DNA of 64,000 nucleotides. Origin: Naegleria gruberi (Eukaryota). The translations under genes and the position numbers were made by a program. Each line of letters opens with the position of its first letter. Within the stretch, counting starts at the first letter, position 1. A model generated the notes under the pieces. That model saw only the letters and a program-made list of their open reading frames with translations, was not told the origin of the DNA and made no database searches. Below are positions 13,927-30,815 of the stretch, one piece after another. The stretch is from NCBI GenBank assembly GCA_000004985.1, contig GG738893.1. The stretch is one strand, 5' to 3'.

Positions 13927-14376
13927 ATGTCAAACACCAACCAAACAAAAAGTAATAGGTCGAAAGCCCAAAGTAACTGGAACCAAGCCATGCTAGAGAG
14001 CTCGATAAATTCCAGCCGGCTGATAATATGGAAAGTGGCCAAAGATAAAACTATCAAATCCACACAGGAGAGAAAATCCATCAAGAAACAAAAGACGAAA
14101 GTGACTGTCGATGGAATTGTGAGGAATCGAATGATTTCTGATAGAGAGATTATGCAAGTTTTACATTTACCACAAATGCAAGCATGTAAAATATTGAATT
14201 GTAGTTTATCCACTTTGAAAAGAAGATTTTACGAATTGAAAGATGGTTTTGGATTAGACAGATGGCCCAATAATTTGCTTGTTGCCAGACATTTGCCAAT
14301 TTTCAAAAAGATTTATCCAATGTCTTTGGACTTTATTCTGAATCATGACGACGAAACATCTACCACTTCTCAATAA
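13927..14376 (+). CDS. small RWP-RK domain transcription factor (MID-like size)
   Basis: The RWP-RK domain reads RMISDREIMQVLHLPQMQACKILNCSLSTLKRRFYELKDGFGLDRWP and ends in the conserved tail HLPIFKKIYPMSLDFILNHDDE. The ORF starts with ATG. Confidence 0.75.
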   Translation: MSNTNQTKSNRSKAQSNWNQAMLESSINSSRLIIWKVAKDKTIKSTQERKSIKKQKTKVTVDGIVRNRMISDREIMQVLHLPQMQACKILNCSLSTLKRRFYELKDGFGLDRWPNNLLVARHLPIFKKIYPMSLDFILNHDDETSTTSQ

Positions 14377-14468
14377 AATCATCTACTAATTTCTAACTGA
14401 ATTTCGAACTAGAATACATGTTTATTTTCAAACAAATATTAGAAAGTCAAATGGATGACAGAGAATCT

Positions 14469-15680
14469 CTAACTAAGAATATCACCAACAGCTTTATAAC
14501 AATAAAATTCATATTTCAAAAACTCAAACGAGCCATCTCTTATTCCCAACGCCAAACAACTCGAATTAATTTCCTCTCCATCAGTCACTCCTCTATAATG
14601 CAACTCTTCCTTCATGAAACAAGTATAAACATGATTGAATTGTTGATTCTTGAGCAACTTTTCAAATTCCACTTCAACGCCATCGTGAGCTGTTTGATGT
14701 GGACAGCAATCAGCAATATTTGAATGGAATGATAATTGATGAGGAGCAGAATATTCAGAATGCAAATAGATCAGTAAATTGAAAAGTGCTTCCTTTGCAA
14801 AATTAACTTTCAAAACTCCAGATTTGTGACAATTAACTACAAAATCATTAATCCATTGATTGAAATTTTGAGTAATTTCGTTTGGAACTTGTTTTTCAAT
14901 TTCAACATCAACTTCATTGTAATCAAAATCATCAAAACCTGTAACAATGTGTGAGGAATCAATGAAATCTAACTTGAAAGAAGTTATCTTTCTGATATTT
15001 CTAACAATATCATGTTGATAAGTTCCAAAAAAATCATTCGATTCTACATAAACTCTACAACTTTCATTGTAATAAATCTTTTCCAAATCCTTTACAATTT
15101 TTTCATCAATTTTTTCAACAATTCCATTGATTAAGAAATGATTCTTGAAAGAGGTTGGACTTTCTTCTTTCTTTTCATTCGAAACATGACTAATCAGAAG
15201 TGGAAAGAATAAGAAATCTTCATAACTAAACCGAAAACGTTTCTGACACCAAATCAGCTCCATATCCATTCCAATTAATTTAGCCAACTCGTAAATTACA
15301 CCTTTGGCCTTCAATTGCTTTGGAACTTGATCAAAATTTTGTGGTTTTTCAAGTAAAATTTTGCCAAATGTCAAAACATTTTTCTTCATTGGACGTCCTA
15401 CTTCAAACTCGAATAACTTCTCAGTTAGACAAGATTCAATAGAATAATAAGCTTTTGATAGATAGTATAGCATGGAAACCTCATGAATATTGATAGGTTT
15501 CGGAAAATCTTGTTCGAAATCTTTCACAATTGGCTGAAGGAAAATATTTAAATTTTGTTCGATCAGGAATTTCCATTCCTTGTTCACGAGAGTGAATTTT
15601 AGGATATCTTTCAGGGTGGAATAGTCGAATAGGATGGAGAGGAAGGTGTCGATGTGGTGTGTGAGCGGATGTTGTGTCAT
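14469..15680 (-). CDS. hypothetical protein with an F-box-like N-terminus
   Basis: The 403-aa ORF starts with ATG. The N-terminus (FLSILFDYSTLKDILKFTLVNKEWKFLI) is F-box-like. Confidence 0.4.
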   Translation of the reverse strand: MTQHPLTHHIDTFLSILFDYSTLKDILKFTLVNKEWKFLIEQNLNIFLQPIVKDFEQDFPKPINIHEVSMLYYLSKAYYSIESCLTEKLFEFEVGRPMKKNVLTFGKILLEKPQNFDQVPKQLKAKGVIYELAKLIGMDMELIWCQKRFRFSYEDFLFFPLLISHVSNEKKEESPTSFKNHFLINGIVEKIDEKIVKDLEKIYYNESCRVYVESNDFFGTYQHDIVRNIRKITSFKLDFIDSSHIVTGFDDFDYNEVDVEIEKQVPNEITQNFNQWINDFVVNCHKSGVLKVNFAKEALFNLLIYLHSEYSAPHQLSFHSNIADCCPHQTAHDGVEVEFEKLLKNQQFNHVYTCFMKEELHYRGVTDGEEINSSCLALGIRDGSFEFLKYEFYCYKAVGDILS

Positions 15681-15761
15681 TTGCTATTTTTTTAGTTTCG
15701 AATAAAGTTTTATTTTTAATGAAAGTGTGAAACAGTGTTACATTCGGCTAAATTGAAAAGT

Positions 15762-17066
15762 TTACAATTTGATAATATCAGATTCTAAAATTTTCTTATA
15801 TCCTCCAACAGTTTGTTGTGAACTTTCACTATTCGAATCTTTTGATAATTGTGAAATTGGATTTTCCGTCTTTTCAAAAACAAATGTCGTGTACAACTTG
15901 ACAACTGTCCAAAAATCCTCATTCATATCTCGAACATTTAATCTTGGACGACTATTCTCAGTTTCTCTATTATTTCTGTATTTTTCATAAAAATCATAAA
16001 AATTCAAATTCTCAACCAATGAAAGATTGAATTCCTTGGCCATTTCTATAAATATTTGAGGGTTGACTAGATATTCAGGACATGGATCGACGGCATCTTC
16101 CAATTGGAATGTATAGCAATTTCCAAATGGTTCCTCAAATGATTTGTCATCAGAACATTGAAAATTAGCTTGAAATACTGAATTTTTCAATGTCTTTCCC
16201 TCAACTTTCTTTAACATGCTTTGTAAAACGTTGGAATCAAGTGTGGTGACGATGAATTTGCCTCCCTTCTTCAATCTACTGGTGGCATTTTGCAATGCAG
16301 TTTTAACATGTTCCTTACTTTGAAAAAAGTAGTGGAAGGCAAATTGACATGAAACTGTATCAAATTCCACATTGGAATCAAGTGCACTTTCAATTGACAC
16401 TTTCCCAACATCTGCATGAATTAATTTGGCAGGAAACTTCAAATCTCTTCCTCCATTATATCTTTCACTCAAACTCACCAATGAATTGAATGAAATATCA
16501 ACTCCTACATAATTCTTAATATTTCTAAAACTGAATTTGAATAAATCACCTCCCTTTCCACAACACAAATCCAAAACAGTGCACTCATTCGGAACATATT
16601 TGTAAATCAAAACTCCTTTCAGCCAATTATTAAAATCCTTAATTGGTTTAATTGGTGAATTGTTTCTTTCTTCCCTCGATTGATTCTTCCTCTGATCATA
16701 CATCTCCTCCGGTGTAAATGTTCTATTATTGTAATTCCTATTATTACTATCACGATGATGATAATTACGATTATTGTTGTTATTATTATTGTAATATCTA
16801 TTATTATTATTATTATTTGAATGATAACGTTCTTGTTGTTTATATTGTTTTTGAATTCCTCTTGATTCTCTATTATATGATGATGATGATGAATTATCAT
16901 CTCTATCATTCATTCTCCTATTATTATTATTGTTATTATTATTTTGATGATGATGAGAATTGGAAACATGATCATTCCGATATTCTCTTCTCCTCTCTGT
17001 ATTGTTATTGTTGTTGTTGTTGTTGTTATTACTGTGATGATGAGAGGCTGAGTCTTGTGCTGGCAT
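15762..17066 (-). CDS. mRNA cap guanine-N7 methyltransferase with an Asn/His-rich N-terminal extension
   Basis: Methyltransferase motif I reads VLDLCCGKGGDLFKF. The cap-MTase signatures are YVGVDIS and FDTVSCQFAFHYFFQS...GGKFIVTTLDSNVL. A poly-N/H/R low-complexity tract covers about 130 aa at the N-terminus. Confidence 0.75.
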   Translation of the reverse strand: MPAQDSASHHHSNNNNNNNNNNTERRREYRNDHVSNSHHHQNNNNNNNNRRMNDRDDNSSSSSYNRESRGIQKQYKQQERYHSNNNNNNRYYNNNNNNNRNYHHRDSNNRNYNNRTFTPEEMYDQRKNQSREERNNSPIKPIKDFNNWLKGVLIYKYVPNECTVLDLCCGKGGDLFKFSFRNIKNYVGVDISFNSLVSLSERYNGGRDLKFPAKLIHADVGKVSIESALDSNVEFDTVSCQFAFHYFFQSKEHVKTALQNATSRLKKGGKFIVTTLDSNVLQSMLKKVEGKTLKNSVFQANFQCSDDKSFEEPFGNCYTFQLEDAVDPCPEYLVNPQIFIEMAKEFNLSLVENLNFYDFYEKYRNNRETENSRPRLNVRDMNEDFWTVVKLYTTFVFEKTENPISQLSKDSNSESSQQTVGGYKKILESDIIKL

Positions 17067-17158
17067 TTTTTTTTAAATTGTTTGAACAAATATTATAAAG
17101 ATATTTAGGATAATTTTAAATCATGTAATATCATGTAATAACAACACTACAAAATATT

Positions 17159-18044
17159 AAAATTAAGGTGGCACTGTAGCTGACAATAAAAGGAAATTCG
17201 GTAAAAATTTTTGGTTAATTATTTTTTACAATTCTTGCTGAATGACGAAGTAATTTATTAAAGTTTGAGAGGTTCTCCTACACTCTCCTACAAATTTGGA
17301 GACTTGGTTAGAAGACAGCATCTTCTCTTATATGTGAATAGTTTATCCCTACTTTACTTTGCTTTACTTTTCACTCTCTTTAGAATAAATAATGAAATCC
17401 CAACATGATCCGATTGTTCTTCATCATCGTAACGGTAAAAAAATTAAAGTTTTAACCTTCTCCTACACTCCAGTAACAAAATTAAACATTGCAAAAAACA
17501 AGATATGGTCTAGATGTGTTGTTATGTTTGTACCAACTTTACTTTGCCTTCTTATTGTGTTTCCGTATTGAAAATAAGCAACTAAAAGTACTATCAAAAC
17601 CAATTAATTTTATTTTCGGATGTTCTACAAATTTTAAATGAAATTGCATCACGAAGTTCTCAACCATCAGATAGGATTCAACTGTTTCTGTAGCATGCAA
17701 AAGAGAATATTCTAAGAACAATACTGAATGTGTATGTAGATCACTGGTGTGGAAATTATGACAAGTGCTATGGAGAAAAAACAAGATGCTTGTTGTAAAA
17801 TTGACGAAAGAAGTGCATAGTTTCAGAAACACAATCAACAGAAATTAATTTCCGAAAAAGAAAGAAGAAGAAAATAGATCATGGTGTTTCATGTTCATGT
17901 ACTGCAAAAGTTGTCCTTGTAAATCAGCTCGTGTGTTGTGTGGCAATGATTGTCACAAAGGACAAACAAGATGTAAACTGTTTCGACTTGTTATTTTTTT
18001 TAAAATTTTGGTGAACAATGAACAATAGTGCCACCTTAAGACAT
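17159..18044. mobile_element. candidate non-autonomous TIR element: 15-bp imperfect inverted repeats each abutting a TTAA
   Basis: The left end TTAA-GGTGGCACTGTAG (17163..) and the right end ATAGTGCCACC-TTAA (..18040) are reverse complements (14 of 15). About 860 bp of non-coding-looking sequence lies between them. There is no transposase ORF. Confidence 0.25.
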
Positions 18045-18312
18045 TATTCTTGGATAATTTTTCGAAACACACGAAAGAAAAGAATAAATGTTGAATGGAT
18101 TACCTGAAGCAGCCAATAATTTTATTGTTCATATTTGTTAGGTTGCATTTCCTTTTAGAGCGAATTGAGCTGAAAAAACGTGTTGTGGGTTCCTGGTTCA
18201 AGAAACCGTTTTGACGGCTGTGGCAGCTGACACGCGTTATTTTGATGTTGGCGTTTAAATCGTCATCAACAACATGCTGATTATTAAATAATAATAATTA
18301 TTGTTAATAATA

Positions 18313-18789
18313 TTAGTCTTCGTTGAGAATGAATTGAAGGCTCATTGGATAAAGTTTGTTAAATATTGGCAAGTGACGTATTTCAAAAAAGTATTGTGGC
18401 CATCTCTCTAATCCAAATCCATCCTTCAATTCGTAAAATCTTCGTTTCAGAGTAGATAAACTACAATCTAATTGTTTACATGCTTGAATTTGGGACAAGT
18501 GCAATACCTGTAACATTTCCTTCTCAGAAATTATTCTATTTCGTCTTGGTTTTGAAATTTTAGTTTCAACAAAATGTGAAGAACCATTAGAGGATATCTT
18601 TCTCCAACATGTAGTCATGAATTGAGCAGAACCAGAGCCATTAGTATTTGTCTTTCTTGTATCAACTTGAAAGGATGAAGAATTCAATTTCTTGTTTTTG
18701 TCTGAAGATGACCCAGAAGATGAACTTGACAAGTCAGAACTCTTGAAATTTGCCGTGCTAGTTGACTGACATGGGGTGGTTGAATGCAT
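18313..18789 (-). CDS. small RWP-RK domain transcription factor
   Basis: The RWP-RK domain reads RIISEKEMLQVLHLSQIQACKQLDCSLSTLKRRFYELKDGFGLERWPQYFFEIRHLPIFNKLYPMSLQFILNED. The N-terminus is Ser-rich. The ORF starts with ATG. Confidence 0.75.
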   Translation of the reverse strand: MHSTTPCQSTSTANFKSSDLSSSSSGSSSDKNKKLNSSSFQVDTRKTNTNGSGSAQFMTTCWRKISSNGSSHFVETKISKPRRNRIISEKEMLQVLHLSQIQACKQLDCSLSTLKRRFYELKDGFGLERWPQYFFEIRHLPIFNKLYPMSLQFILNED

Positions 18790-19894
18790 TTTGATTTTGT
18801 GTTGTTGGTTTTTTTTGTGTTTTGATAATTTCTTCTTCTACACACAGCGTGTCTTTCCAAATTATGAAGCAGGAAGGCAACAATGAAGTGTCACACAAAT
18901 AACTGTCACATCTTCTACAACAGTAGAGCCTTCCTTTTAGAGAACCTATCCATGAAATTTGGAATTTTAACAAAGGCAACGAAATGAGATAAGCATGTTC
19001 GTGTGGTTTTCTTTGGGTAAGTGTTGAATTTAAACTCTCCTTTTAGGCCAACCAATCACTTGTGTTGACACTATTTGGGTTTTGATACGTTTTGATTTGG
19101 GCCTTGCTTGGCCACAAGTCCCTTATGGACCAATAACACTCATCTATTCTAGTACATTTAGGTAAATGTTAATATATTTAATGTTCAGAGCTGTTGTGAG
19201 AAGTTTTCTTCTTGTTTTTGTCGTTACCAAATGTACTCGGTAAATCATGATAGTGCCAAAATTACTCTGTAGAGAGGTGTTATTTCAACTGTTGAGATGA
19301 TTGTGTATTAGCAATATCAATTGTTCTTATCACTGATGAGAGTTCGGATGCATCTCCCGCATCAACAGAACTCCCTTTTCTCCCAACAAAATAGATTTAG
19401 CCATGGTAAATAAGAATCAGAATGTAATCAGGCTAAAAAACACTATTCTCACACCTTCGGCAATGAACTTTGCTCTTCTTGCCTTTTAAATTTGCTCTCA
19501 AAATCTTTACTATTTTCAAGCCTTCATAATGATCAAGACAACAACACGAAACCGTTCTCTATGCAATAATACATATATGTGTTCAAGAGAGAAATCAATA
19601 CAAAGGTTTTGAGGCTTTTTTATTAAGAATTTACAGTTTTCTTGGCGCCAAAAATTTTACTTTTAAATTAAACGTTTGAAAAAAATGGTGCGATGAATGA
19701 GAAGGAATTTTTGATCAAAATTCACGAAGGAGAAGTGCCATAGAGTTTGGTGTGAGATGATTGAATATGGGAGGTTTTATTTGATTTGATGCATTAATTT
19801 GAATAGCTGATCTATGATAATTATTTACAAGTGTATTAATAATTATTAGTAATTATTAATAATCAAAACATGAGTAAACATCATGATAATTTTT

Positions 19895-20395
19895 CTAATT
19901 GTTGAGAAGTTGTGGTTTTACATTTTCATCAGTTTGAATATTTGTGCTTTTGCTTCTGTACTCTGGATCGGCATATTTGAGCAAATTTAAAGTGGAACTA
20001 TTCAACTTTCTTGCTGGCTTTGAAATCCTATTGTTTGGTTTCAAGCTTTTCAGAACAAGTTGATGAGGACTGGAAGATTTCTTGATGAGGATTGGCTGGG
20101 TATTTAGTCTTGTGCTTATTAGAATTGGATTGGCTCTGTTAATGATTGTCCCATCATTAACATTATGTGTATTATTACTATTATTAAAGAAATCAATATG
20201 GCCCATCAACAGGTTCGTTTCATCTTGGAGAGGAGTTTGAATTGGATAATGCATTGCTAAATTATCGGAATGATGATATTGATCTCCTTCTTGTCCAAAT
20301 ACTTCATGTGCTTGTGGTGTTTGTTCTTGTGGAAAATATTCAACAACAATTTCTTCAACCTCTGATGAAGACAATGAATCTCTCGACCTGTTCAT
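19895..20395 (-). CDS. hypothetical Ser/Asn-rich protein
   Basis: The track ORF 19895..20473 starts at TTG, and the first ATG gives 20395. No domain was recognised. It may be an exon of a larger gene. Confidence 0.2.
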   Translation of the reverse strand: MNRSRDSLSSSEVEEIVVEYFPQEQTPQAHEVFGQEGDQYHHSDNLAMHYPIQTPLQDETNLLMGHIDFFNNSNNTHNVNDGTIINRANPILISTRLNTQPILIKKSSSPHQLVLKSLKPNNRISKPARKLNSSTLNLLKYADPEYRSKSTNIQTDENVKPQLLNN

Positions 20396-20573
20396 CACTA
20401 AAACACGTGTTGTATTTTTCTTTGGAAATGAAAACGATTGTTGACGGGCGCTAAAATACCAACAATCTTTCAATATGATTTAAAATAACAATATTTTTTG
20501 TTCCTACCCAAAAAAAGGTAAATTTGCTGTTGTCATAGAATGGAATGGAAATGGATTAATAGGTCGAATCTAT

Positions 20574-21206
20574 CTATTCCTCATCACTGTTGAGAATGAA
20601 TTGTAAATTCATTGGATAAATCTTTTTGAAAATTGGCAAGTGACGAATTTCAAAGAAATATTGAGGCCATCTTTCCAATCCAAAACCATCCTTCAATTCA
20701 TAGAATCTTCTCTTGAGTGTGGAAAGACTGCAATTAAGTTGTTTGCATGCCTTTTGTTGTGATAAATGCAAAACTCCAAGAATTTCCTTTTCAGAGATGA
20801 CTCTCTTCTTTTCCACTGAATTGAATGAATTCGTTTCCACAATATAATTAGCAAAAGTTGATGATGTGCATCTCCATTTGGTGATGGTAGGTGTTGTATT
20901 ATTAGATGAACCAACAGTAGGTAAGTTTCTATTACTGACATGTTGCCAAACATTTGCACTTAGATTCGATGCAGAGCTGCTGCTCTTAGGAGATCCACTG
21001 CTAACACTGCTCATACATGCATTATTGCTTCTAACACATTGTTGTGAATGAGAAGGATATTGAAATGTCTGATCTACCACATGCATGCCTTTCTGAACTA
21101 TCACATGTTTAGATATGCTCATTGCTGGCTGTTGTTCCAGCACAATGGTCAGCTTGTTTCCTGACATTTTCTTACTCTTTCCAATCTTGTTATTATTGCT
21201 ATTCAT
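20574..21206 (-). CDS. small RWP-RK domain transcription factor
   Basis: The RWP-RK domain reads RVISEKEILGVLHLSQQKACKQLNCSLSTLKRRFYELKDGFGLERWPQYFFEIRHLPIFKKIYPMNLQFILNSDEE. The ORF starts with ATG. Confidence 0.75.
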   Translation of the reverse strand: MNSNNNKIGKSKKMSGNKLTIVLEQQPAMSISKHVIVQKGMHVVDQTFQYPSHSQQCVRSNNACMSSVSSGSPKSSSSASNLSANVWQHVSNRNLPTVGSSNNTTPTITKWRCTSSTFANYIVETNSFNSVEKKRVISEKEILGVLHLSQQKACKQLNCSLSTLKRRFYELKDGFGLERWPQYFFEIRHLPIFKKIYPMNLQFILNSDEE

Positions 21207-21924
21207 CTTGTTGCTATTTTTTTTTGAAAATTATTGAAAGAATTGATATTTGGATTTGTGTCATTTATATACGAATTAAGAAGCAAGAATCATCTCTGGT
21301 TTGATGTTTTTTTCTCTTTTTGCTCGAATGTCACTGAGAATCATGATCATAGTTTGTTCGAGATGAAACGAATAGAATGGACGAAAGAGATACGTAAGGA
21401 GATGGTGTTTCTAGTTTTGATATTCTTGATGAAACAGGAGAACTTTTCTGTCCCTTTCATGTAATACGTGTTCTTTTTGAAGAGTACGGTAACATGTCAA
21501 ACACAAGTGTTAAGGAGATTGTTTAATCTTTGGATTACATGTGATTAATGGCATTTCTAATCTAGTTGAGCATGTTCAGAAACAACTCATCTATCTTTGA
21601 AATCAAGCCCTAAATACTTCAGAGATGATGAAACATGATTTCAACCATATTGATCATTATTCAAGTCGTTTGACTTTTGACAATTATTGAATACTTTAAA
21701 AGGAATCATCAAGTTGACATTATGATGATTTAATCGATGGTGAACCTTTAGCTTATCCTTCAAAACAAACTTCAATAATAATCGAGTCCAGTAGTTTAGA
21801 AATTGAAAACACAGTTTGTATTTTTTTACTGATGAGATTACTTCAACACGACAAACTAATTCATTCCACATTAGTCAACCAAGGCAACCTCAATCAAATA
21901 AGACAAATATTTTGACATCTTTCT

Positions 21925-22308
21925 TCAATCATTCAAAATGAATTGCAAACTCATTGGGTAAATCTGTTGGAAAATTGGCAAATGTCGAATTTCATGAAAA
22001 TATGTCGGCCAACAATTTAATCCCAAGCCATCCTTCAGTTCGTAGAATCTTCTTTTCAAGGTGGATAAACTACAGCCGAGTTGTTTGGATGCTTGTTGTT
22101 GGGAGAGATGCAAAACCTTGATCATTTCTTTATTGGATATGATTCGATTTTTTGTTTTCTTTCGTTTATTTCCTTCAATGAATTTGTTACCAATAGAAAC
22201 TCGTTTGAGGACGAAAGAGAACTCATTTGAAGAATGAGTTGTCGATTTGGTTGGAGAAGGTTTCTTTTTCACTATTGAAGTAATTTCAGATGTTTCAATT
22301 CTTGACAT
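21925..22308 (-). CDS. small RWP-RK domain transcription factor
   Basis: The RWP-RK domain reads RIISNKEMIKVLHLSQQQASKQLGCSLSTLKRRFYELKDGLGLNCWPTYFHEIRHLPIFQQIYPMSLQFILND. The ORF starts with ATG. Confidence 0.75.
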   Translation of the reverse strand: MSRIETSEITSIVKKKPSPTKSTTHSSNEFSFVLKRVSIGNKFIEGNKRKKTKNRIISNKEMIKVLHLSQQQASKQLGCSLSTLKRRFYELKDGLGLNCWPTYFHEIRHLPIFQQIYPMSLQFILND

Positions 22309-22454
22309 TTTGTTTGTTTTGCTTTCGTATACTTACTGTTAACATTTATATAGTACTGGATTGGTTGTAATCATGGGAGATTGAATATCATAATCAGGTG
22401 AGATAGTCTCGTCTCAATCCCAAAATGGATATTTTTATTTTGATTAGTCTTGAC

Positions 22455-22510
22455 AATTTTTGAGAATGAATTGAAAACTCATTCAATGATTTCTTCAAAT
22501 ATTGGAAAAT
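22455..22510 (-). pseudogene. decayed remnant of an RWP-RK gene 3' end
   Basis: The segment TTGAGAATGAATTGAAAACTCATTCAATGATTTCTTCAAATATTGG matches the conserved 3' ends of the RWP-RK paralogs at nucleotide level. The 18313 copy has TTGAGAATGAATTGAAGGCTCATTGGATAAAG...AAATATTGG. The reading frame is not intact. Confidence 0.3.
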
Positions 22511-22653
22511 TATGATAAGGGAGTTTCCAATTACCATTGATTTTATATACCATGATGATTGATGGTAACTTTTCAAGATAAAAACCTGCAACTTCTACAA
22601 CAGAAATTGATCAAAGACAATAACTAATACATTTATTAGCACCAGCCTCGAAT

Positions 22654-23157
22654 TTATCTGTTATTCATCTTGTTTACCTCTTTATTTAAGTTGTTAATCT
22701 GATTTATAAGCACAGCGTTCTCATTCTTTAAGAGTTTAACTTCCTTTCTAAGACTAGTACATTCACCACAACAAACTGGCGAGATTGGAGTTTCCTTTTT
22801 CTTTGATTTGCCTGCTTTTTTATCACTACGTTTCTCTGCCAACAGAATTCCTTCTAAACTCCTTGCTTGTTCTTCCAAGGCCTGATTTTTAGTGATAATA
22901 TCTGAAAAGGAAGAATTGGTAGGAAGGAAAATCAATGGTGCATTCTCAGTACTAAGAGAAGAATTCACAAAGAAAGTTGGAATTGGTTTAGCCAAATCTT
23001 CATCAACTACATTCTCAAAAATTACCATATCACCAATGCAAACTGGTTTTTGCAACGGGTTATTAAATGGTGGCTCCAAATGAGAAGTTTCAGATAGGCT
23101 TTTAGGAGTGCAATCTAACAACTTTCCCTTCTGCAGGTCTTTGCTAACAATAAGCAT
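22654..23157 (-). CDS. hypothetical protein with a C-terminal leucine zipper
   Basis: The first ATG is at 23157; the track start 23196 is TTG. The C-terminus has heptad leucines L-x6-L-x6-L-x6-L-x6-M (LRKEVKLLKNENAVLINQINNLNKEVNKM), preceded by a Lys-rich stretch. Confidence 0.4.
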   Translation of the reverse strand: MLIVSKDLQKGKLLDCTPKSLSETSHLEPPFNNPLQKPVCIGDMVIFENVVDEDLAKPIPTFFVNSSLSTENAPLIFLPTNSSFSDIITKNQALEEQARSLEGILLAEKRSDKKAGKSKKKETPISPVCCGECTSLRKEVKLLKNENAVLINQINNLNKEVNKMNNR

Positions 23158-23437
23158 TTTCAGAAGTGAGGGATTTTTTTTTAATTTATTTTTCAAGGTG
23201 ATTACGGTTTGCGCGGGAAATGTTGGTCATGTGATAAAGCAACATTGGTGGAATCATTAAGCTTGAATTGTTGCTTGTGAAAGTAAGATTGCAAACATGA
23301 GTATTAAGGAAACTTCTTTTGATCTATTCCAATTCAATTTTTTCAACAAGTTTCCAATAAATCTATCCGAAATCAGCACTTGGAAATCAAATTAATGTTA
23401 AAATTGTTTAAAATACAATAATTTCGAATAGATTTTA

Positions 23438-24622
23438 TTACACAATTTGGTCATTTATACAATTCTTCCAATTTCCATTAAAGAAAAATGAAAAACTCTT
23501 TCTAAAACTCTTCTTGATATGTTTTCCAGTTGACTTGACTCCCTTATGATATTTCCAAATATATTCTTTCAAAGTTACCAAAATTGTACAAATAATAAAA
23601 AAGGCAAGAACTGAAGCCACAACCATCGAACAAGCAGCAATGATTGGATCATTTCTCTGTTGATCATAAATAGCATAAGTTGCCCATGAAAGAACTGCTG
23701 TATACGGAGCATCTCTTCTCCACCACAAAAAGATCATTCCAATAATCAAGACGATTGCCAAGAGTAAACAAGCCCAATTCGAATAGGACATTCCAAGGAG
23801 AATCTTATCAGTAGAAGGCCATGTGTAAGTAATGGCAATGGTAATATTCAAAGTTGTGGCAACAGTCAACCAACCCATATAAATACTAATCATTGGTTGA
23901 ATAATCCAATATTCCCACAAATTACATTCGGCATGATTCCACAACTTTCCCTTCGTATATAATTCACTCTTTTGAGGTTCCAAATAATTTACATTGACAC
24001 GTACGTACATGATTGCCAAGGTCAGTAACATTAAGGCAATGAACACAACTGCAGCCCATTGAGATCCATAATTTCCTCTCGCACTAAAATGAAATGGAAA
24101 GAACCAAATAATATTCAATAAAAAATTCAAAGGAAGGAAAATTGTCATTTTGTGGTTGATTAAAATATTATCTCGACCGAAAAGTAAACTTTGGATAAAG
24201 TTAATGACGACTACGGCTGCTACGAAGGTGTAGATGAGACCCCAGATGGAGAATGCCCATCCTTTTGGTGTGAATGGTGTGAAATATTCAGTAGAAATGT
24301 CAGATGTCTTGATGCCATTAATGATATTTCCAGCACTTGACAGAATATTCATAATTACCAAACCAATAAAGAAGATTGTGTTCAGAATTGGAATTAATCT
24401 CACTCTGACCTTCTTATAAATTGGTGAATGTTTTTCTGAATGTGTTTCTTTCAGTAAGAATGTTGGAGTTTCGTAATAAATATTCGATTCCTTATATTGT
24501 TTCTCGTCAGTCTTTGAAGAGCCAGAAGTTGTCGACCTTTCACTATTCACTTCTGCATTCACTGTCTTTTCGTTGGCTTCAGAATTTTGCACTGCTTGTG
24601 GTGGTGAAATCTTTTGAGTCAT
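23438..24622 (-). CDS. multi-pass integral membrane protein, Trp-rich, family unknown
   Basis: The 394-aa ORF starts with ATG. After a hydrophilic N-terminus there are about 8 hydrophobic helices with many Trp and Tyr residues. The domain is unassigned. Confidence 0.45.
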   Translation of the reverse strand: MTQKISPPQAVQNSEANEKTVNAEVNSERSTTSGSSKTDEKQYKESNIYYETPTFLLKETHSEKHSPIYKKVRVRLIPILNTIFFIGLVIMNILSSAGNIINGIKTSDISTEYFTPFTPKGWAFSIWGLIYTFVAAVVVINFIQSLLFGRDNILINHKMTIFLPLNFLLNIIWFFPFHFSARGNYGSQWAAVVFIALMLLTLAIMYVRVNVNYLEPQKSELYTKGKLWNHAECNLWEYWIIQPMISIYMGWLTVATTLNITIAITYTWPSTDKILLGMSYSNWACLLLAIVLIIGMIFLWWRRDAPYTAVLSWATYAIYDQQRNDPIIAACSMVVASVLAFFIICTILVTLKEYIWKYHKGVKSTGKHIKKSFRKSFSFFFNGNWKNCINDQIV

Positions 24623-24952
24623 TTCTTACAATATACACTATTTTAAAGAGATATTAATTTGTTATAAGGTGAATTTCAAAATGTTGTTGAGATTTTGATG
24701 TTTGCTTATTTTTTTCTAACTGGTTTTTAAGGATCTCCATTGAAATAACAATTGTGTTCAGTAAAAATCAGCGAAATCTCAAGATTCGAGATTATACTTG
24801 AAGTTGTACTTGAGGTTGAAGAGATTTTTCTTATACTTGAAGAGATTTACATATTCATCTTTGGTTTGGTCATGGATAAGATGTTGTTTTCAAGTGCTTT
24901 ATTGTGAGTATCAAGTGCGAATTGTAGCGTTTCCTCTTCCATTGTAATATTC

Positions 24953-26024
24953 TTATTGATCTTGATAGAGAATTACATTTTGTAATAATTCAAAATTGGA
25001 AAGTGAGTTTTGAATGAATCTGTTGAAACATGCTTGAATTGCTGCTAATTCTTGTTGATTTTTGAATGATTGATCTTCTGTTGCATCTAATTGTGCAATA
25101 ATTTCATAATTGGTCAATTTGGAATTCTTTACAATTTTCACAAGTTTTTCCTTTACAAAATTTAAATTTTCCAGCAATAAATTGTCTTCCAATTCAGTTT
25201 CATAAGTATGAATGTAGATAATTAATGGAAAATCTGGAGTATCTTTGATCATGTGAATGGATTCAATGAAAGATTCAATTCTTTGATAATCCTTCTTCAA
25301 TGGCCATGAGGGAATCAACAATATGAAAGCATTTCCATTTCTATAATGATCACAGTGGTATCTATCCTCCTTCTCATGCGCAATTTCAGCTGTATAATGT
25401 CGATAAATAATCAAAATTCTGATAAAACTTACCAATGTCAATAAGTTTAGTTTCACATTTCAAATATTCAAGATATAAACTTTTTAATCCAATGTGATTG
25501 TAATTCACTGAAACATTAACAGTATTTTGTCTTGAACGATACTTTGAATATTTGTAATTTTTTAACGTTTCATATGAAGTGTATGGATCTAATTTCTTAT
25601 GGAATTCACTTCTTCCAGTTTTTTTATCTGAAAGTAGAATTATTGACAATTCTTTGGATTTCAATAATTCTTTCATCATCTTTTGTTTCCATGTCAATAA
25701 TTTACAAATAGAACTATTTAATTGCTTTCTTTCCAATAGAGATTGACATAAATTATTAGCAAGTAATGATCGGCTAGTATTTACCAATTTACCAAATACT
25801 AGGCTCCATATTTTGTTAAAGTAATCCTCCATCAATTCATTCAATTCGGGAGAAATCAATGAAAGATTATTCACTTGTTGGAACAGTGTTGCTGATTCCG
25901 TATTGGTACTGCCAATATTTTCAAATACAAGAAGATAATCGAAAATAATTGCGAATATTTCTGAAGGTAGCTTGTGAATAATTGTTCTTTCTTGTTCTTG
26001 TTGATGAGGAGATGATGCTAACAT
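24953..26024 (-). CDS. F-box-like protein, 2 exons: 26024..25433 and 25389..24953, with a 43-bp intron at 25390..25432
   Basis: The N-terminus (LPSEIFAIIFDYLLVFENIG) is F-box-like. The two overlapping track ORFs are joined by a GTAAGT...TACAG intron, giving ...KLIDIAEIAHEKEDRYH... in frame. Confidence 0.5.
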
Positions 26025-26076
26025 TTTTTTTTGTTACAGCACATAATAGAACTTCCTATTTTGAATCAAATTCTAT

Positions 26077-27525
26077 TTATTCCATGGCATCACCTGGTGA
26101 TTTAACTCCTGGAGACTTTTTGACTACTTTTGTTGTTACGGTGGCCTTTCTTATTATTCCTTTTTGTACAATTTGTGGTCGAGAAATAGGTGAAGAGGAA
26201 TAATCAGATCCATTATCTGATAGGGCAGGAGAATTGATTGGAGTTATTGGTGACATTGGAGATGTACCAAGAGAGTTTACAGTTGGAACTTTACGAATAA
26301 TCTTTCTGATTATTTTAACTGGTTCTGATGGAGAAGGATTTTGGTGGAGTGGAATGGAATCTATTGTATTTGGTGAATCACTGACCTCGTCATCCATAAC
26401 TGAGGAAGCATTGGAGAGCATTGAAAGAGTTCTATCGGTAGAGCATGACGATATCGATGATACTGAGCTCACAGATGAAGAGTAGAGAGAGTTATTTCTA
26501 TTGTTACTTCCGTTTTGTGAAATGATCGAACCATGATCTGGTTGTTTTGTTGTTGTCACTATAATCGATCCATTTGTGGTTGATGATGAAGATGGTGCAG
26601 TAGAGGAGTTCTTATTAGAATTTCTTCTCTTAAACGAGTGTCCTGTTGACAATGAATTTTGGTTTTCACCACCTGTTGCTGATTTGTGTGAATTTGAATT
26701 CTTTCTTCTTGATGTTACACTAGGAGGAGGCACATGTGAGCTTGCAAGCCAAATTAAATGATGCAAAACCTCATCAATCGACACATCATTCAGTGAAGCC
26801 TTTACTGTGGCCATCTGGAAAAGCCACCTCTTATTTGTATCAGCCGAATATCTAATCAACATTTCAGCAACCTCACAAGCTACTTGACTATTCTTTACAT
26901 TCATCGTAAGCCAAGATTGTTCCGTATTACTATTGTTAGCATTCAAATTTAATCGCAAGCCATCATCATTGCTGTTATTATTTGGCTTATTAAGAATTTG
27001 ATGATGATCGCGTGAGGAAGAGACAATAGAACGTGGCGAGGTTGATGTTGAGGCTTTTTTTCCCTCCAACATGATCTGTAAAAGATTGGCGCGCTTTGAT
27101 TCTTCCATAAAATGATAGAAAAGAACATGATCAAAGGCTACGGGTGAAGCATTGGAAGCAGCAGAGGACAGAAAGATTGGAAGTTGGCTCGATGAATTAT
27201 TATAGGAGGTAGATTGAATTCGGGAGGAGGTGGCTGGCTGTGGATGTTGTTGTTGTTCATTAGAAAAATTTAAAGATTGATTATTATTGTTATGATTTGA
27301 ATTTTGAATTGTTGTTGTAGTAGTAGCCGAAGATGATGAAGATAGAGTGATGGTATTAGAGGAGGAGAGAACGGAAGTTGGTGAAGGTGGAGTTTGGTGA
27401 AGGAAATGTGCTGAAGTCGATGATGTCGACATGTAACTACCGCTCATCATCATCATGTTGTTATTATTATTATTGGGAGGTGATGATTCAGGTAGTTGTT
27501 GATGAGGAGAACCATGATGAATCAT
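26077..27525 (-). CDS. Ser/Asn/Thr-rich low-complexity protein, hypothetical
   Basis: The 482-aa ORF starts with ATG. Composition is strongly biased, with one short non-repetitive central block. Confidence 0.35.
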   Translation of the reverse strand: MIHHGSPHQQLPESSPPNNNNNNMMMMSGSYMSTSSTSAHFLHQTPPSPTSVLSSSNTITLSSSSSATTTTTIQNSNHNNNNQSLNFSNEQQQHPQPATSSRIQSTSYNNSSSQLPIFLSSAASNASPVAFDHVLFYHFMEESKRANLLQIMLEGKKASTSTSPRSIVSSSRDHHQILNKPNNNSNDDGLRLNLNANNSNTEQSWLTMNVKNSQVACEVAEMLIRYSADTNKRWLFQMATVKASLNDVSIDEVLHHLIWLASSHVPPPSVTSRRKNSNSHKSATGGENQNSLSTGHSFKRRNSNKNSSTAPSSSSTTNGSIIVTTTKQPDHGSIISQNGSNNRNNSLYSSSVSSVSSISSCSTDRTLSMLSNASSVMDDEVSDSPNTIDSIPLHQNPSPSEPVKIIRKIIRKVPTVNSLGTSPMSPITPINSPALSDNGSDYSSSPISRPQIVQKGIIRKATVTTKVVKKSPGVKSPGDAME

Positions 27526-28050
27526 CTTTTTCGTTATTTAATTAATTTAATTATAATATCGTCTTCTTTAGGATCAATGGATAATAGGAGAGAAAAAGTC
27601 TGCCTTTCACCCTCTGCTGATAATAATAATTTAGAATTTAAAGATTTGATGATGATCGAAAGTTAAAGTAGATATCTAATAATTATTGGAAGAATATAGT
27701 CTCACAATCTCATCACCACAAAAAGACAAGGTTAATGATTCGGTCACTTTGTTTTTTTTGTTGGCGTAAAGCAAATCGTTTGATTCTTGACATGGAAACG
27801 AAGGAAGATTCGGCTGACACCATGACATGCCATATTTTGTTCAAGAAAGTTTACAAATTCTCTTTGTAAATGTAATGACCTTTTTTCAAAGGCTTTAACC
27901 CTTCCAGATATGAACAGTCATTAAGCAACACAAGGTTCACAAATGTCACCATAGCATACAACTGTCAAACATATTTCTGTAAATGCCATTAAGAAAAGCA
28001 TTCCCAAAAAGATCCTCATCATCTCAGAAAAGAGTTTCAAAAAAATAGTA

Positions 28051-28485
28051 TTGGTCAATAACAGTTCTTTTACTATTATTATTATTATTGGCATGAAAAT
28101 AGAAATGAGCTGCTACATGAGAGCCATTGTAGTATGGTTTGTTATCATGTTGAGTGAGACAGTCCATGGAATATTGAGAGGATTACTATTGGTGCCACTG
28201 GTTGGTGATTTCCGAGCTCGACAAGTTTGTGTCTTTACAGGAATGTTATTAATTTATTCAATTGTTAAAAGGTTTAAGAGGTGGATTAATGTTCGGAATG
28301 ATGATCATGTTCAAAAATTTGGAATTGGACTGATGTGGGCCTTACTCACAATTTTCTTTGAGATTGGACTTGGAAGATTGGCTGGCTTTTCATGGGAACG
28401 AATCATGGAGGATTATAATCTACTTCAGGGAGGTTTCATGATCATTGGATTGGTGTTCATGTCTCTTGTGTTGAGAATTGTATGA
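28051..28485 (+). CDS. small hypothetical membrane protein
   Basis: The 144-aa ORF starts with ATG and has 3-4 hydrophobic helices. Confidence 0.3.
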   Translation: MVNNSSFTIIIIIGMKIEMSCYMRAIVVWFVIMLSETVHGILRGLLLVPLVGDFRARQVCVFTGMLLIYSIVKRFKRWINVRNDDHVQKFGIGLMWALLTIFFEIGLGRLAGFSWERIMEDYNLLQGGFMIIGLVFMSLVLRIV

Positions 28486-28651
28486 ATTACAATTATCAAA
28501 AAATTTAATTGGTTGATTCTTCCTATTGGCAATATTTGTTGTTACATGTACAATTATTAATTACATAATATATTAATAATATTAAATTATTATTATTAAT
28601 TCATAATTCATGTTGAATTTCTTCATGCCAAATCAAATAATAATAATAATA

Positions 28652-29475
28652 TTAAATTGTTTCAATCACTCCTCCACTCGAAATATTCGGAATTGAATTA
28701 TTAAACAATTCATTATATGAAGAAATATGATCCGAATGGAATGACGATGAATTTTCATCTTGTTGTTTTTCTTCATTCAATATGAATTGCAAAGACATGG
28801 GATATAATTTGTTAAATATTGGTAAATGTCTAATATCATGGAAATATTGTGGCCAACGTTTCAATCCGAGTACATCCTTCAATTCGTAAAATCTTCTTTT
28901 AAGAGTTGAAAGACTACATATAATTTACATGCCTGTTGTTGGGAAAGATGTAAAACCTGAATCATTTCCTTCTCGGATATCACTCGATGTTTCCTCACTT
29001 TGGCCATTTCGAGATAACTTTGAATCTTCTTCTCCTTGAATGAGGAAGAACCTTGTGGAGAGAGAACCTTCTTCCAACACACTGTGAGCTGATTGCAACT
29101 GGAATTCAGATGAGGTTGGGATGTTGATGATGAACCTGCTACTGATGATGAGACACATGTATGACAAGTGTTGGAACTTGTATTAAGGAGTTGGATGGAA
29201 CTACTTGAGAGAGATGTGGTAACTGTAGTGGTGTTAGTATTATTGGAGGGAGAAGTGGATGGATTAGTTAATATTACATTGGAAAAACGACCACTATTAA
29301 TGTCTGCCTTAACATGTGTTATGGTATGTTGTCTCTGCCTTAACATATTGCGAGGTTTTGGAATACCGTTGACGTACTGTAGATAGTGTTGTTGTGAGTT
29401 GAAAGATGTGGAAGAAGAACTACTAGAGCAACAAGAAGAACTGGATGATGTATTTGCAATGCACAAAAAACTCAT
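28652..29475 (-). pseudogene. RWP-RK family member disrupted by a 4-bp deletion inside the RWP-RK domain
   Basis: The upstream ORF ends in ...VLHLSQQQACKL and then runs into a frameshift. The downstream ORF resumes in another frame with (STLKRRFYELK)DVLGLKRWPQYFHDIRHLPIFNKLYPMSLQFILNEE. Alignment to the paralogs shows CAACTTAAT replaced by TTATA. The first ATG of the upstream part is at 29475. Confidence 0.5.
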
Positions 29476-29900
29476 TATGAATTCAGTTGATTGGTATCGA
29501 TAGTTGATTGGAATGTTTGGTAGTTTTTTTGGATTCACCAACCAACTGAATGCACAACAAGGTGTGGGATTCAAAATTGGTGGTGTGAAAGATGGAGTTG
29601 TGTTTAATCTCCTATGGACATATATAGTGGTTGTGAAAAATGGAAAAGCACCCCTCAAATTAGTTGTGGACTTTTTTCAAGTTCTTCGTTATGTTGGTTG
29701 AGGCAGACGATTAAGGATGTGAGGACTGTGCTTGCTTTAGAAATATGATATACTTCATCTTAACATGGCTTTATCGGCGAAAAATAGTTCGTATTAGCCA
29801 TATGTCCTCAATATGAAAAGAATCATTTTTCCTTTATGGACTGCTCAACTATTTATTTGCTTGTTCTAAATGACAAAACTTGATTCTTCCACATTTGAAA

Positions 29901-30815
29901 TCATTTCTTGGCGAGCCTCCTCAGTGGTAATGATACTTCTTCCTCTATACCGTCTACTTGTTTTCTCTTCCATTGTTGTGGAACTGGCTCTGACATCTCA
30001 GCTAGGTCTTCAATCTCCTCTGGAGTTGGTAATGGCTTTGTGTGGTGCTTGTCATTGAGGAGGTAACAAGTGGTCATTCCCTTTCCTTTAACTTCAATGT
30101 AACGTTCCTCAAATTCAAATCCCAAATCATGAACACGTTCATAGGTCGATCTGCTGATTTGAATTCTTCCTGAGAGTGATGTTGATTCGATTCGAGAAGC
30201 TGTATTCACTGCATCACCCCACAAATCATAAGCAAACTTTTTAGTTCCAATCACTCCTGCAATTACTGAACCAGTGTTAATTCCTGCTCTAATATTAATT
30301 TGTGTTGTTGGATTTTTAACATTAAAGTCATGAATCGCATCAAATGTTCCCATTGCAAATCTCAGGATGCAGATTGAGTATATCCAATTCCACTAACACA
30401 GAAATAAGCATCTCCAATGGTCTTGATCTTTTCCAAACTATACTCATCTGTCAAGGCATCACTGTAAAGTTAGCTCTGTGAACCACTCTCAAAACAGATG
30501 TTCCATGTTTGATATTCAACATTGTATAATAGGAAGAGTTTACATTAGTTTCAGATTCTAACAGAATCAATCCACAACACTAGGTCACAAAAACCACACA
30601 ATCACAATTCCATATATGAAGAACAAATTTCTAGATTGATTGAAACTATTCTTTGGCAAGTGAATGGCCACACCATCATCATTCTTTATACCAATTTGGT
30701 GATATATTTTACCAACTACATTCTTGGATAAGGAAGTATTCATCAGATTCAGCACTTGTTTAAATTGAGACATTTCTCTTCTAGTTATCATGAGATAGAC
30801 AAGGAATGCAACCAA
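29901..30815 (-). pseudogene. decayed duplicate of the class III cyclase catalytic domain
   Basis: The minus-strand translation is recognisably similar to the catalytic domain at 7900-8600, but the matching pieces lie in different frames. The fragments are LMNTSLSKNVVGKI..., DCVVFVT*, ...MLN..., LYSDALTDEYSLEKIKTIGDAYFCVSGIG and then, in another frame, RFAMGTFDAIHDFN...IRAGINTGSVIAGVIGTKKFAYDLWGDAVNTASRIESTS...RSTYERVHDLGFEFEERYIEVKGKG. There are several stops and frameshifts. None of them can be removed by a GT..AG intron. Confidence 0.5.

What the first reader, a model, noticed from the sequence alone, without database searches (positions are those of the whole stretch)
13927..29658. Cluster of five small MID-like RWP-RK transcription-factor paralogs plus remnants
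Five genes lie within 16 kb: 13927..14376 on +, and 18313..18789, 20574..21206, 21925..22308 and 28652..29475 on -. Each encodes a short protein of 127-260 aa. Each consists essentially of one RWP-RK domain with the same C-terminal tail (RWPQYFxEIRHLPIFxKIYPMSLQFILN). Their N-termini are highly divergent and Ser-rich. Minimal RWP-RK proteins of this size are what volvocine algae use as the MID sex-determination factor. Local tandem expansion, diverged N-termini and co-located decay products are typical of a fast-evolving regulatory locus. I saw no other transcription-factor family in the window.
Basis: partly seen in the sequence, partly recalled or inferred. Interest (0 to 1): 0.7.

Follow-up and report, generated by a model that had tools for sequence, protein, structure and literature searches.

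The report
Naegleria RWP-RK transcription factor cluster
This stretch of the Naegleria gruberi genome holds an old local cluster of four intact and one frame-shifted small RWP-RK-type DNA-binding genes; the family is already known to be large in this amoeba, and nothing here ties the cluster to sex determination.

Summary
The window is Naegleria gruberi, and five paralogs of a small RWP-RK-like protein lie at the stated coordinates. They share about 70 residues of helix-turn-helix core plus the tail RHLPIFxxIYPMSLxFILN.

Corrections to the observation:
- The fifth copy lacks 4 nt inside the domain, so it is a frame-shifted pseudogene or a sequencing error.
- The motif is RWP-QYF, not RWPxRK.
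- Only one short relic (22458-22510) has statistical support.

- RWP-RK is already catalogued as the third-largest transcription-factor family in Naegleria, with 39 genes in N. gruberi and 26-27 in N. fowleri.
- The tail subfamily also occurs on at least six other N. gruberi scaffolds and in N. lovaniensis, N. fowleri and Willaertia. Tail-less relatives occur in Acrasis.
- Small size is the family norm (median 188 aa), so it is not a MID-specific trait.
- The copies are old (synonymous sites near or at saturation), and their domains are under purifying selection (dN/dS about 0.08-0.2).
- The flanking genes are ordinary.
- g4 and its flanks recur at 94% identity in an environmental relative.

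Verdict: an ordinary, old local duplication cluster of a lineage-specific divergent RWP-RK subfamily. Interest is low to moderate. A link to mating type is not excluded but has no evidence.

The parts
13927..14376 (+). g1: intact 149-aa RWP-RK-like gene (NAEGRDRAFT_71772, D2VS10). Domain plus tail is at 14134-14343; the motif is RWPNNL.
   Evidence: ORF. Pfam RWP-RK 30.6 bits. Identity to the NCBI protein. An environmental relative, P0007, groups with it at 99% bootstrap.
18313..18789 (-). g2: intact 158-aa RWP-RK-like gene (NAEGRDRAFT_71775, D2VS13). Domain plus tail is at 18322-18531; the motif is RWPQYF.
   Evidence: The AlphaFold2 model of residues 50-158 has block-mean pLDDT 86-93 over model residues 41-90 (75-80 in the flanking blocks).
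20574..21206 (-). g3: intact 210-aa RWP-RK-like gene (NAEGRDRAFT_71777, D2VS15). Domain plus tail is at 20589-20798.
21925..22308 (-). g4: intact 127-aa RWP-RK-like ORF with CWPTYF in place of RWP. Domain plus tail is at 21931-22140. The exact product is not in the protein collection.
   Evidence: It is conserved, with its flanks, in metagenome contig L003 (94% nt identity over 1405 nt).
28652..29475 (-). g5: frame-shifted copy. The first frame (ATG at 29475) ends at stop 28879-28881 after helices 1-2. The second frame (28918-28655) carries CSLSTLKRRFYE...FILN. The lesion is at 28919-28923, where 5 nt stand in place of 9.
   Evidence: Sequence, DNA alignment, codon dissection, profile hits in two frames.
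22439..22530 (-). Short decayed relic of the tail-coding 3' end of a sixth copy, about 150 nt upstream of the g4 start codon.
   Evidence: nhmmer E 6.5e-4 (alignment 22458-22510). Direct repeat D8 with the 3' end of g2. It is also present in L003.
19685..20473 (-). Possible, unproven, heavily decayed copy between g2 and g3: a 192-aa ORF plus a downstream 'PIFNHLTPNSMALLLRE' piece, collinear with the gene layout.
   Evidence: Only weak matches: tblastn E 0.1-0.7 and profile E 4.9. No DNA-level match. No Pfam hit.

Best explanation
The region is an old, locally duplicated cluster of a Heterolobosea-specific subfamily of small, divergent RWP-RK-domain proteins in Naegleria gruberi.

Each intact copy (g1-g4) has three parts:
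- a disordered, Ser/Thr-rich and basic N-terminal region;
- a three-helix helix-turn-helix core (VLHLsQxqAckxLxCSLSTLKRRFYELK);
- a WP loop followed by a conserved C-terminal extension (RHLPIFxxIYPMSLxFILN), which the structure model packs with the core into one confidently predicted unit.

The most likely function, which is inferred and not shown, is sequence-specific DNA binding through the third helix. The variable N-termini would provide paralog-specific regulation or activation. This would make them ordinary members of Naegleria's large RWP-RK transcription-factor repertoire.

Likely history: ancient local duplications, including one inversion (g1), followed by long retention under purifying selection. 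Unrelated genes now lie between the copies. At least one further copy decayed (the relic upstream of g4). g5 was disabled recently by a 4-nt deletion, unless that deletion is an assembly error.
For: - Organism and gene identity: g1, g2 and g3 are 100% identical to N. gruberi predicted proteins on a 337,165-bp scaffold.
- Family: Pfam RWP-RK hits in g1-g4 and in 33 of 33 aligned subfamily members.
- Published catalogue: RWP-RK has 39 genes in N. gruberi and 26-27 in N. fowleri, the third-largest TF family (Herman et al. 2021, PMC8296547, Table S3).
- Distribution: tail-subfamily members occur on at least six other N. gruberi scaffolds and in N. lovaniensis, N. fowleri and Willaertia; tail-less family members occur in Acrasis.
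- Family size in the 1.84-billion-protein representative library: 216 representatives at E<=1e-3 and 34 at E<=1e-30.
- Purifying selection and age: pN 0.09-0.20 against pS 0.59-0.82; dN/dS is 0.08-0.20 where dS can be computed. DNA similarity is limited to 220-232 nt at 73-81% identity.
- Local duplication recurs in this family: a tandem pair in N. lovaniensis, adjacent gene numbers g10375/g10377 in N. fowleri, and two genes 3.6 kb apart on environmental contig L006.
Against: - No direct evidence of expression, DNA binding or regulatory targets was available for any copy.
- The Pfam scores are borderline: two of four full-length proteins are below the 29.3-bit cut-off.
- The RK dipeptide that names the family is missing.
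- The NJ tree on 75 columns gives weak support (38%) for g2-g5 forming one clade. P0012, on another scaffold, is as close to g2/g4/g5 as g1 is. 'Purely local' duplication is therefore not proven.
Confidence: 0.8

Rival explanations
1. One reading: the cluster is a MID-like sex- or mating-type-determining locus. Small RWP-RK factors would specify gamete or mating identity in Naegleria, with fast evolution and presence/absence variation between mating types.
For: - Naegleria is inferred to be sexual (meiosis toolkit, HAP2, heterozygosity, recombination), but no mating-type genes are known (PMC9928731).
- MID is a small RWP-RK protein, and small MID-like proteins outside volvocines have been noted as candidates (PMC4086717).
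- The N-termini of the paralogs are divergent.
- One copy is disabled and at least one relic is present.
Against: - Small size does not discriminate: the median is 188 aa across 179 family proteins.
- N. gruberi has 39 RWP-RK genes, and the tail subfamily sits on at least six other scaffolds.
- The canonical RWPxRK of MID is absent.
- The domains are conserved rather than fast-evolving, and the duplicates are old.
- The neighbours are ordinary genes such as the cap methyltransferase, MAPEG, cyclases, kinases and SNF2, and composition is uniform.
- g4 and its flanks are present and collinear in an environmental relative.
- The one published expression datum for a Naegleria RWP-RK gene concerns mouse-passaged N. 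fowleri, not sex.
Confidence: 0.04
2. The ORFs are non-functional leftovers: a decaying array of pseudogenes that merely still have open frames.
For: - g5 is frame-shifted.
- A relic lies upstream of g4.
- The g4 and g5 ORF products are absent from the protein collection.
- No expression data were available.
Against: - Synonymous sites are near or at saturation, yet about 70 residues stay 67-88% identical between copies, with dN/dS 0.08-0.2. That is not possible for long-dead genes.
- g4 is about 98% identical in protein to an environmental ortholog, with no substitutions in the HTH core and one conservative change in the tail, while the intergenic DNA carries indels.
- 21 columns are invariant across species as distant as Willaertia.
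Confidence: 0.04
3. The helix-turn-helix genes belong to a mobile element or a viral insertion (for example a transposase-derived HTH, or giant-virus DNA as known in Naegleria) rather than to host transcription factors.
For: - Multi-copy, dispersed across scaffolds, in mixed orientation.
- Isolated weak hits to HTH_Tnp_ISL3 and Xre-like HTH in 1-2 of 33 members.
Against: - Repeats between copies are confined to the domain-coding 220-232 nt, with no terminal repeats or shared flanks.
- No transposase or viral hallmark genes are nearby.
- No relative was found in 2.9 million viral contigs.
- GC content is uniform at 0.30-0.37.
- Orthologs are conserved across Naegleria and Willaertia in different genomic contexts.
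Confidence: 0.02

Closest known systems
Naegleria RWP-RK transcription-factor family as catalogued by Herman et al. 2021 (BMC Biol 19:142, Table S3)
   Same: Same organismal genus and same Pfam family. The domain strings listed for N. fowleri (e.g. ...VLHLSQPQACKVLNCSMSTLKRKFYQMKNELGMDKWPQY) are plainly the same subfamily as g1-g5. g1-g3 are existing N. gruberi gene models.
   Different: That catalogue gives counts only. It does not describe this cluster, the conserved C-terminal tail, the loss of RK, the frame-shifted copy or the relic. The exact g4 ORF product is not in the protein collection, so g4 was probably not counted.
MID (minus dominance) of Chlamydomonas, Volvox and other volvocine algae
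   Same: A small protein with a C-terminal RWP-RK-type DNA-binding domain and a lineage-specific N-terminal region (PMC4086717).
   Different: - MID has the canonical RWPYRK (PMC7399023); these copies have RWPQYF-type motifs and a 4-residue insertion before the WP.
- MID is a single gene confined to one mating-type haplotype and induced by nitrogen starvation. Here there are five linked copies within a 39-gene family, with no evidence of haplotype restriction.
- Orthology to MID was not tested.
Plant RKD and NLP subfamilies, and oomycete or amoebozoan RWP-RK proteins
   Same: Same Pfam domain and the same predicted helical DNA-binding module with a conserved W-P. In oomycetes too, the R and K of the motif are less conserved than W and P (PMC7399023).
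   Different: - There is no PB1 or GAF-like domain as in NLPs; Pfam finds only RWP-RK.
- The conserved tail IYPMSLxFILN and the fixed 12-residue spacing between KRR and the WP define a heterolobosean subfamily.
Bacterial LuxR/GerE/NarL-type helix-turn-helix effector domains (structural analogues only)

Membership tests
RWP-RK domain family (Pfam PF02042) | Match to the PF02042 profile at or above the curated gathering score (29.3 bits) | tested here: inconclusive
   g1 scores 30.6 and g3 29.6 (above). g2 scores 28.4 full-length and 29.5 when trimmed. g4 scores 25.7 (below). The g5 halves give no hit. All 33 aligned subfamily members hit PF02042 at E<=0.01, best 1.8e-8. Many homologs carry a precomputed PF02042 hit and the UniRef name 'RWP-RK domain-containing protein'. 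Taken together, family membership is well supported even though individual scores are borderline.
RWP-RK domain family (Pfam PF02042) | Conserved RWPxRK hexapeptide | tested here: not met
   W-P is invariant. R is kept in g1, g2, g3 and g5, and is C in g4. The x-R-K positions read QYF, NNL or TYF. Only 3 of 179 related proteins have [RK]WPx[RK][RK]. The Pfam match stops at profile position 43 of 49.
RWP-RK domain family (Pfam PF02042) | Helical, HTH-like DNA-binding fold | tested here: inconclusive
RWP-RK domain family (Pfam PF02042) | Sequence-specific DNA binding and transcriptional regulation | not testable with these tools
   This needs DAP-seq, PBM or genetics. No literature exists on these gene IDs.
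MID (volvocine mating-type/sex determinant) | Gene confined to one mating-type or sex haplotype | not testable with these tools
   No population or haplotype data are available. The only hint is that g4 and its flanks are present in an environmental relative. No mating-type locus is known in Naegleria.
MID (volvocine mating-type/sex determinant) | Canonical RWPYRK motif in a C-terminal domain | tested here: not met
   The motif here is RWPQYF, RWPNNL or CWPTYF. MID carries RWPYRK (PMC7399023).
MID (volvocine mating-type/sex determinant) | Small two-part protein (lineage-specific N-terminal domain plus RWP-RK domain) | tested here: met
   The intact copies are 127-210 aa with the domain at the C-terminus. 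This feature does not discriminate, because the median length of 179 family proteins is 188 aa.
MID (volvocine mating-type/sex determinant) | Phylogenetic affinity to the MID/RKD clade | not tested
   No verified MID or RKD sequences were obtained. The named hits of the profile search are all Heterolobosea; the rest are unnamed environmental sequences.
MID (volvocine mating-type/sex determinant) | Induction by nitrogen starvation or gametogenesis | not testable with these tools
   No expression data are accessible for these genes.
NIN-like proteins (NLP) | RWP-RK domain combined with a C-terminal PB1 domain and a long N-terminal region | tested here: not met
   Pfam finds only RWP-RK. The proteins end 2-10 residues after the tail.

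The most novel reading that the evidence does not exclude
The cluster, or part of it, could be a developmental switch locus in Naegleria. Paralog-specific small RWP-RK factors, expressed on starvation, would select between cell fates (mating or gamete identity, encystment, or the amoeba-to-flagellate transition). This would echo the RWP-RK role in gamete specification in green algae and plants, and would extend that role to Discoba, implying an ancient eukaryotic link between RWP-RK factors and sexual or starvation differentiation. Nothing here excludes this, because no expression or haplotype data could be examined. Nothing specifically supports it for this cluster over the other 30-plus family members.
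Probability: 0.05. Interest if true: 0.8.

Novelty: new member of a known kind. Interest (0 to 1): 0.25.

Why it matters
Its importance is mainly for annotation and classification. It shows that the Naegleria/Willaertia RWP-RK expansion includes a well-defined subfamily with three shared traits:
- a fixed 4-residue insertion before the WP;
- loss of the RK dipeptide;
- a conserved 25-residue C-terminal extension that co-folds with the HTH in the model.

It also shows that the family grows by local duplication, and that at least one intact member (g4) is missing from the protein sets searched.

For anyone looking for regulators of Naegleria differentiation or the still-unknown mating system, these genes are candidates. 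They are no better candidates than the rest of the 39-gene family. The 'MID-like' label should not be propagated on the basis of size.

Tried and rejected
- The look-up of encoding contigs with N. gruberi proteins (g2, P0009, P0012, P0023, P0001) returned nothing, because this genome is not in that index. I could not inspect the other N. gruberi loci for further clusters. I also withdrew my initial idea that g2 was unannotated: it is XP_002673082.
- Searching the supplements of Herman et al. for the N. gruberi domain strings or locus tags found nothing. Only the counts and the N. fowleri rows were usable.
- A literature search for the three locus tags and accessions gave no papers.
- A profile search against PDB sequences gave only chance-level hits (E>=0.3).
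- The first AlphaFold2 run, on full-length g2 with 13 sequences, was poor (pLDDT 59.5). It was replaced by the 33-sequence run.
- Foldseek against afdb50 was unavailable.
- There is no synteny between the window and the N. lovaniensis or Willaertia loci beyond the RWP-RK genes.
- No 8-mer is shared by at least 4 of the 5 upstream regions, so there is no evidence for a common cis element.
- No viral relatives were found.
- The Biopython bootstrap timed out and was replaced by my own NJ code.
- The putative remnant at 19685-20473 was examined at DNA and profile level and could not be substantiated.
Full report
**Source and observation**

The window is AT-rich eukaryotic DNA (GC 0.30-0.37 throughout).
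- g1 (13927-14376, +) is NAEGRDRAFT_71772.
- g2 (18313-18789, -) is NAEGRDRAFT_71775.
- g3 (20574-21206, -) is NAEGRDRAFT_71777.

All five loci exist as described. tblastn, a nucleotide profile and a protein family profile run on the six-frame translation each find exactly these five copies in the 64 kb. E-values run down to about 1e-41.

The shared block covers about 70 residues: I-S-x-K-E-h-h-x-VLHLSQxQACKxLxCSLSTLKRRFYELKDGFGLxRWPQYFxEIRHLPIFxxIYPMSLQFILN. Across nine sequences reaching as far as Willaertia, 21 columns are invariant. The N-termini are 14-27% Ser and only weakly alignable.

**Corrections to the observation**

- *g5 is not one frame.* After ...LHLSQQQACK the other copies have 9 nt (QLx). 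g5 has only TTATA (28919-28923). The rest of the domain (CSLSTLKRRFYE...FILN, 28918 downward) is therefore in another frame, and the first frame stops at 28879-28881. The flanking domain sequence is still as conserved as in the intact copies (pN 0.12-0.17 to the others). The lesion is therefore either very recent or an assembly error.
- *The motif is not RWPxRK.* It is RWPQYF (g2, g3, g5), RWPNNL (g1) or CWPTYF (g4).
- *Remnants.* One relic is supported. At 22458-22510(-), about 150 nt upstream of the g4 start, lies a decayed copy of the tail-coding 3' end (nhmmer E 6.5e-4). It also forms a direct repeat with the 3' end of g2 (D8). A second candidate at 19685-20473(-) is collinear with the gene layout but statistically insignificant.
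- *The array is interrupted.* Unrelated genes sit between the copies, and g1 is inverted. These genes are:
  - a 403-aa ORF with no Pfam hit;
  - the mRNA cap guanine-N7 methyltransferase at 15762-17066;
  - a 180-aa ORF with a sub-threshold bZIP hit;
  - several further ORFs with no Pfam hit.

**What the proteins are**

Pfam assigns only RWP-RK (PF02042). Scores are 30.6, 28.4, 29.6 and 25.7 bits against a 29.3-bit cut-off, and the match covers profile positions 4/5-43 of 49 (2-36 for g4). All 33 aligned subfamily members hit PF02042 at E<=0.01.

An AlphaFold2 model of g2 residues 50-158, built with 33 homologs, has these features:
- Block-mean pLDDT is 86-93 over model residues 41-90, and 75 and 80 in the flanking blocks. 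The N-terminal 30 residues (41-51) and the last residues (60) are low.
- It shows three helices (model residues 40-46, 51-58, 62-76), the WP loop, and two short helices formed by the tail (94-97, 101-105).
- The tail is therefore predicted with fairly good confidence as part of the same folded unit, not a separate motif.

I therefore treat these as divergent RWP-RK-type HTH proteins. DNA binding is inferred, not shown.

**Family context**

- Herman et al. 2021 (PMC8296547) list RWP-RK as the third-largest DNA-binding-domain family in Naegleria, with 39 genes in N. gruberi and 26-27 in three N. fowleri strains. The N. fowleri domain strings they list are of the same type as g1-g5. Their text notes one RWP-RK gene up-regulated in mouse-passaged N. 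fowleri.
- My profile search gave 88 proteins at E<=1e-3. The sequences show tail-subfamily members on at least six other N. gruberi scaffolds (P0009, P0012, P0018, P0023, P0031 and the C-terminally truncated model P0033). Members also occur in N. lovaniensis, N. fowleri, Willaertia magna and many environmental contigs. P0041 (N. gruberi) and the Acrasis kona hits belong to tail-less relatives.
- An exhaustive HMMER scan of 1.84 billion representatives found 216 relatives, 34 of them at E<=1e-30.
- Among 179 family proteins the median length is 188 aa and 83% are <=310 aa. Only 3 have a canonical [RK]WPx[RK][RK]. The tail subfamily has a fixed 12-residue spacing between KRR and the WP, against 8-9 in most others.

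Small size and loss of RK are thus properties of the whole lineage-specific family. They are not a MID-like peculiarity of this locus.

**Age and selection**

Between the five copies, pS is 0.59-0.82, which is near or at saturation (the Jukes-Cantor dS cannot be computed for four of the ten pairs). pN is 0.09-0.20, and dN/dS is 0.08-0.20 where it can be computed. Nucleotide similarity is confined to 220-232 nt of domain-coding sequence at 73-81% identity. The duplications are old, and the domains are under purifying selection.

An NJ tree on 75 columns shows:
- g2, g3, g5 and g4 group together, with weak support (38%).
- g1 pairs with an environmental ortholog (99%).
- P0012, on another scaffold, is about as close to g2/g4/g5 (74-77%) as g1 is (67-74%).
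- The N. lovaniensis and N. fowleri sequences form their own group (62%).

This is consistent with lineage-specific expansion but does not prove it.

Local duplication recurs in the family:
- N. lovaniensis has a tandem pair, a 556-aa and a 280-aa gene. The second has an intron immediately before the RWP codons.
- N. fowleri has neighbouring gene models g10375 and g10377.
- An environmental contig has two small RWP-RK genes 3.6 kb apart.

**Tests bearing on the mating-type idea**

- There is no synteny with the N. lovaniensis or Willaertia loci.
- The rest of the window encodes ordinary genes:
  - LRR proteins and PAS-adenylate cyclases;
  - a papain-like protease and MAPEG;
  - an SNF2 helicase and RCC1 proteins;
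  - kinases and Nop.
- A 1405-bp metagenome contig (L003) is 94% identical to window 21617-23058. It carries g4, the relic and the upstream neighbour in the same order. The g4 protein is about 98% identical, while the intergenic DNA has indels. At least this part of the block is therefore not peculiar to one strain.
- The literature confirms that Naegleria is inferred to be sexual but that no mating-type genes are known (PMC9928731). Small MID-like proteins outside volvocines are so far only speculation (PMC4086717).
- Haplotype restriction and starvation-induced expression could not be tested here.
- No viral relatives and no mobile-element signatures were found.

**Conclusion**

The finding is a real but ordinary feature: an old local cluster of four intact genes, one frame-shifted gene and at least one relic. 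The genes belong to a lineage-specific, divergent RWP-RK subfamily within a family already known to be expanded in Naegleria.

The useful new points are descriptive:
- the definition of the subfamily (insertion, loss of RK, co-folding tail);
- the disabled fifth copy;
- an apparently unannotated g4.

The MID or sex-locus reading has no positive evidence and several points against it. I give it about 4-5%.

Noticed in passing
window 22654-23196 (-): The 180-aa ORF immediately upstream of g4 has a sub-threshold bZIP_1 hit (E 4e-4, 20.9 bits against a 27.6 cut-off) at its C-terminus. It may be a second transcription-factor type in the block. Its 3' part is conserved in environmental contig L003.
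   Followed up: partly
window g1 ~14018-14080, g2 ~18570-18615, g3 ~20850-20885, g5 ~29040-29090: A semi-conserved motif h-h-W-[KR]-[KR]...F lies about 25-35 residues upstream of the HTH in g1, g2, g3, g5 and several homologs (P0006, P0007, P0009, P0012, P0015, P0023, P0027). AlphaFold2 places a low-confidence beta-hairpin there. The N-termini are therefore not entirely unrelated.
   Followed up: partly
L001 10001-10942 (N. lovaniensis): The N. lovaniensis homolog P0005 has an intron inserted directly before the RWP codons, whereas all five N. gruberi copies are intronless in the domain. A second gene (556 aa, ending in an RWP-RK domain) lies 1 kb upstream, forming a tandem pair.
   Followed up: partly
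window 21925-22308 (-): g4 has CWP instead of RWP, and the same change is in its environmental ortholog P0002. The exact g4 product is absent from the 15-billion-protein collection, so it is probably missing from the N. gruberi gene set and from the published count of 39.
   Followed up: partly
window 19895-20473 (-): A 192-aa ORF between g2 and g3 has no Pfam hit. It is weakly collinear with the RWP-RK gene layout (CW..., ARKLNSSTLNLLKY..., then PIFNHLTPNSM downstream after stop codons). It could be a very old decayed copy or an unrelated orphan gene.
   Followed up: yes
window 6877-8715 (+) and 29901-30353 (-): Two adenylate/guanylate cyclase catalytic-domain genes lie in the window, one on each side of the cluster. 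One has PAS domains. The second ORF covers only the C-terminal half of the domain, so it presumably has an intron.
   Followed up: no
window 15762-17066 (-): The mRNA cap guanine-N7 methyltransferase gene carries a long His/Asn-rich low-complexity N-terminal extension of about 110 residues before the catalytic domain.
   Followed up: no
L006 5890-6390 (-) and 10001-10498 (+): A 41-kb JGI metagenome contig from an unidentified eukaryote carries two small RWP-RK genes (166 and 165 aa) 3.6 kb apart on opposite strands, with a Zn_clus-like gene between them. This points to a recurring habit of local pairing in this family.
   Followed up: no
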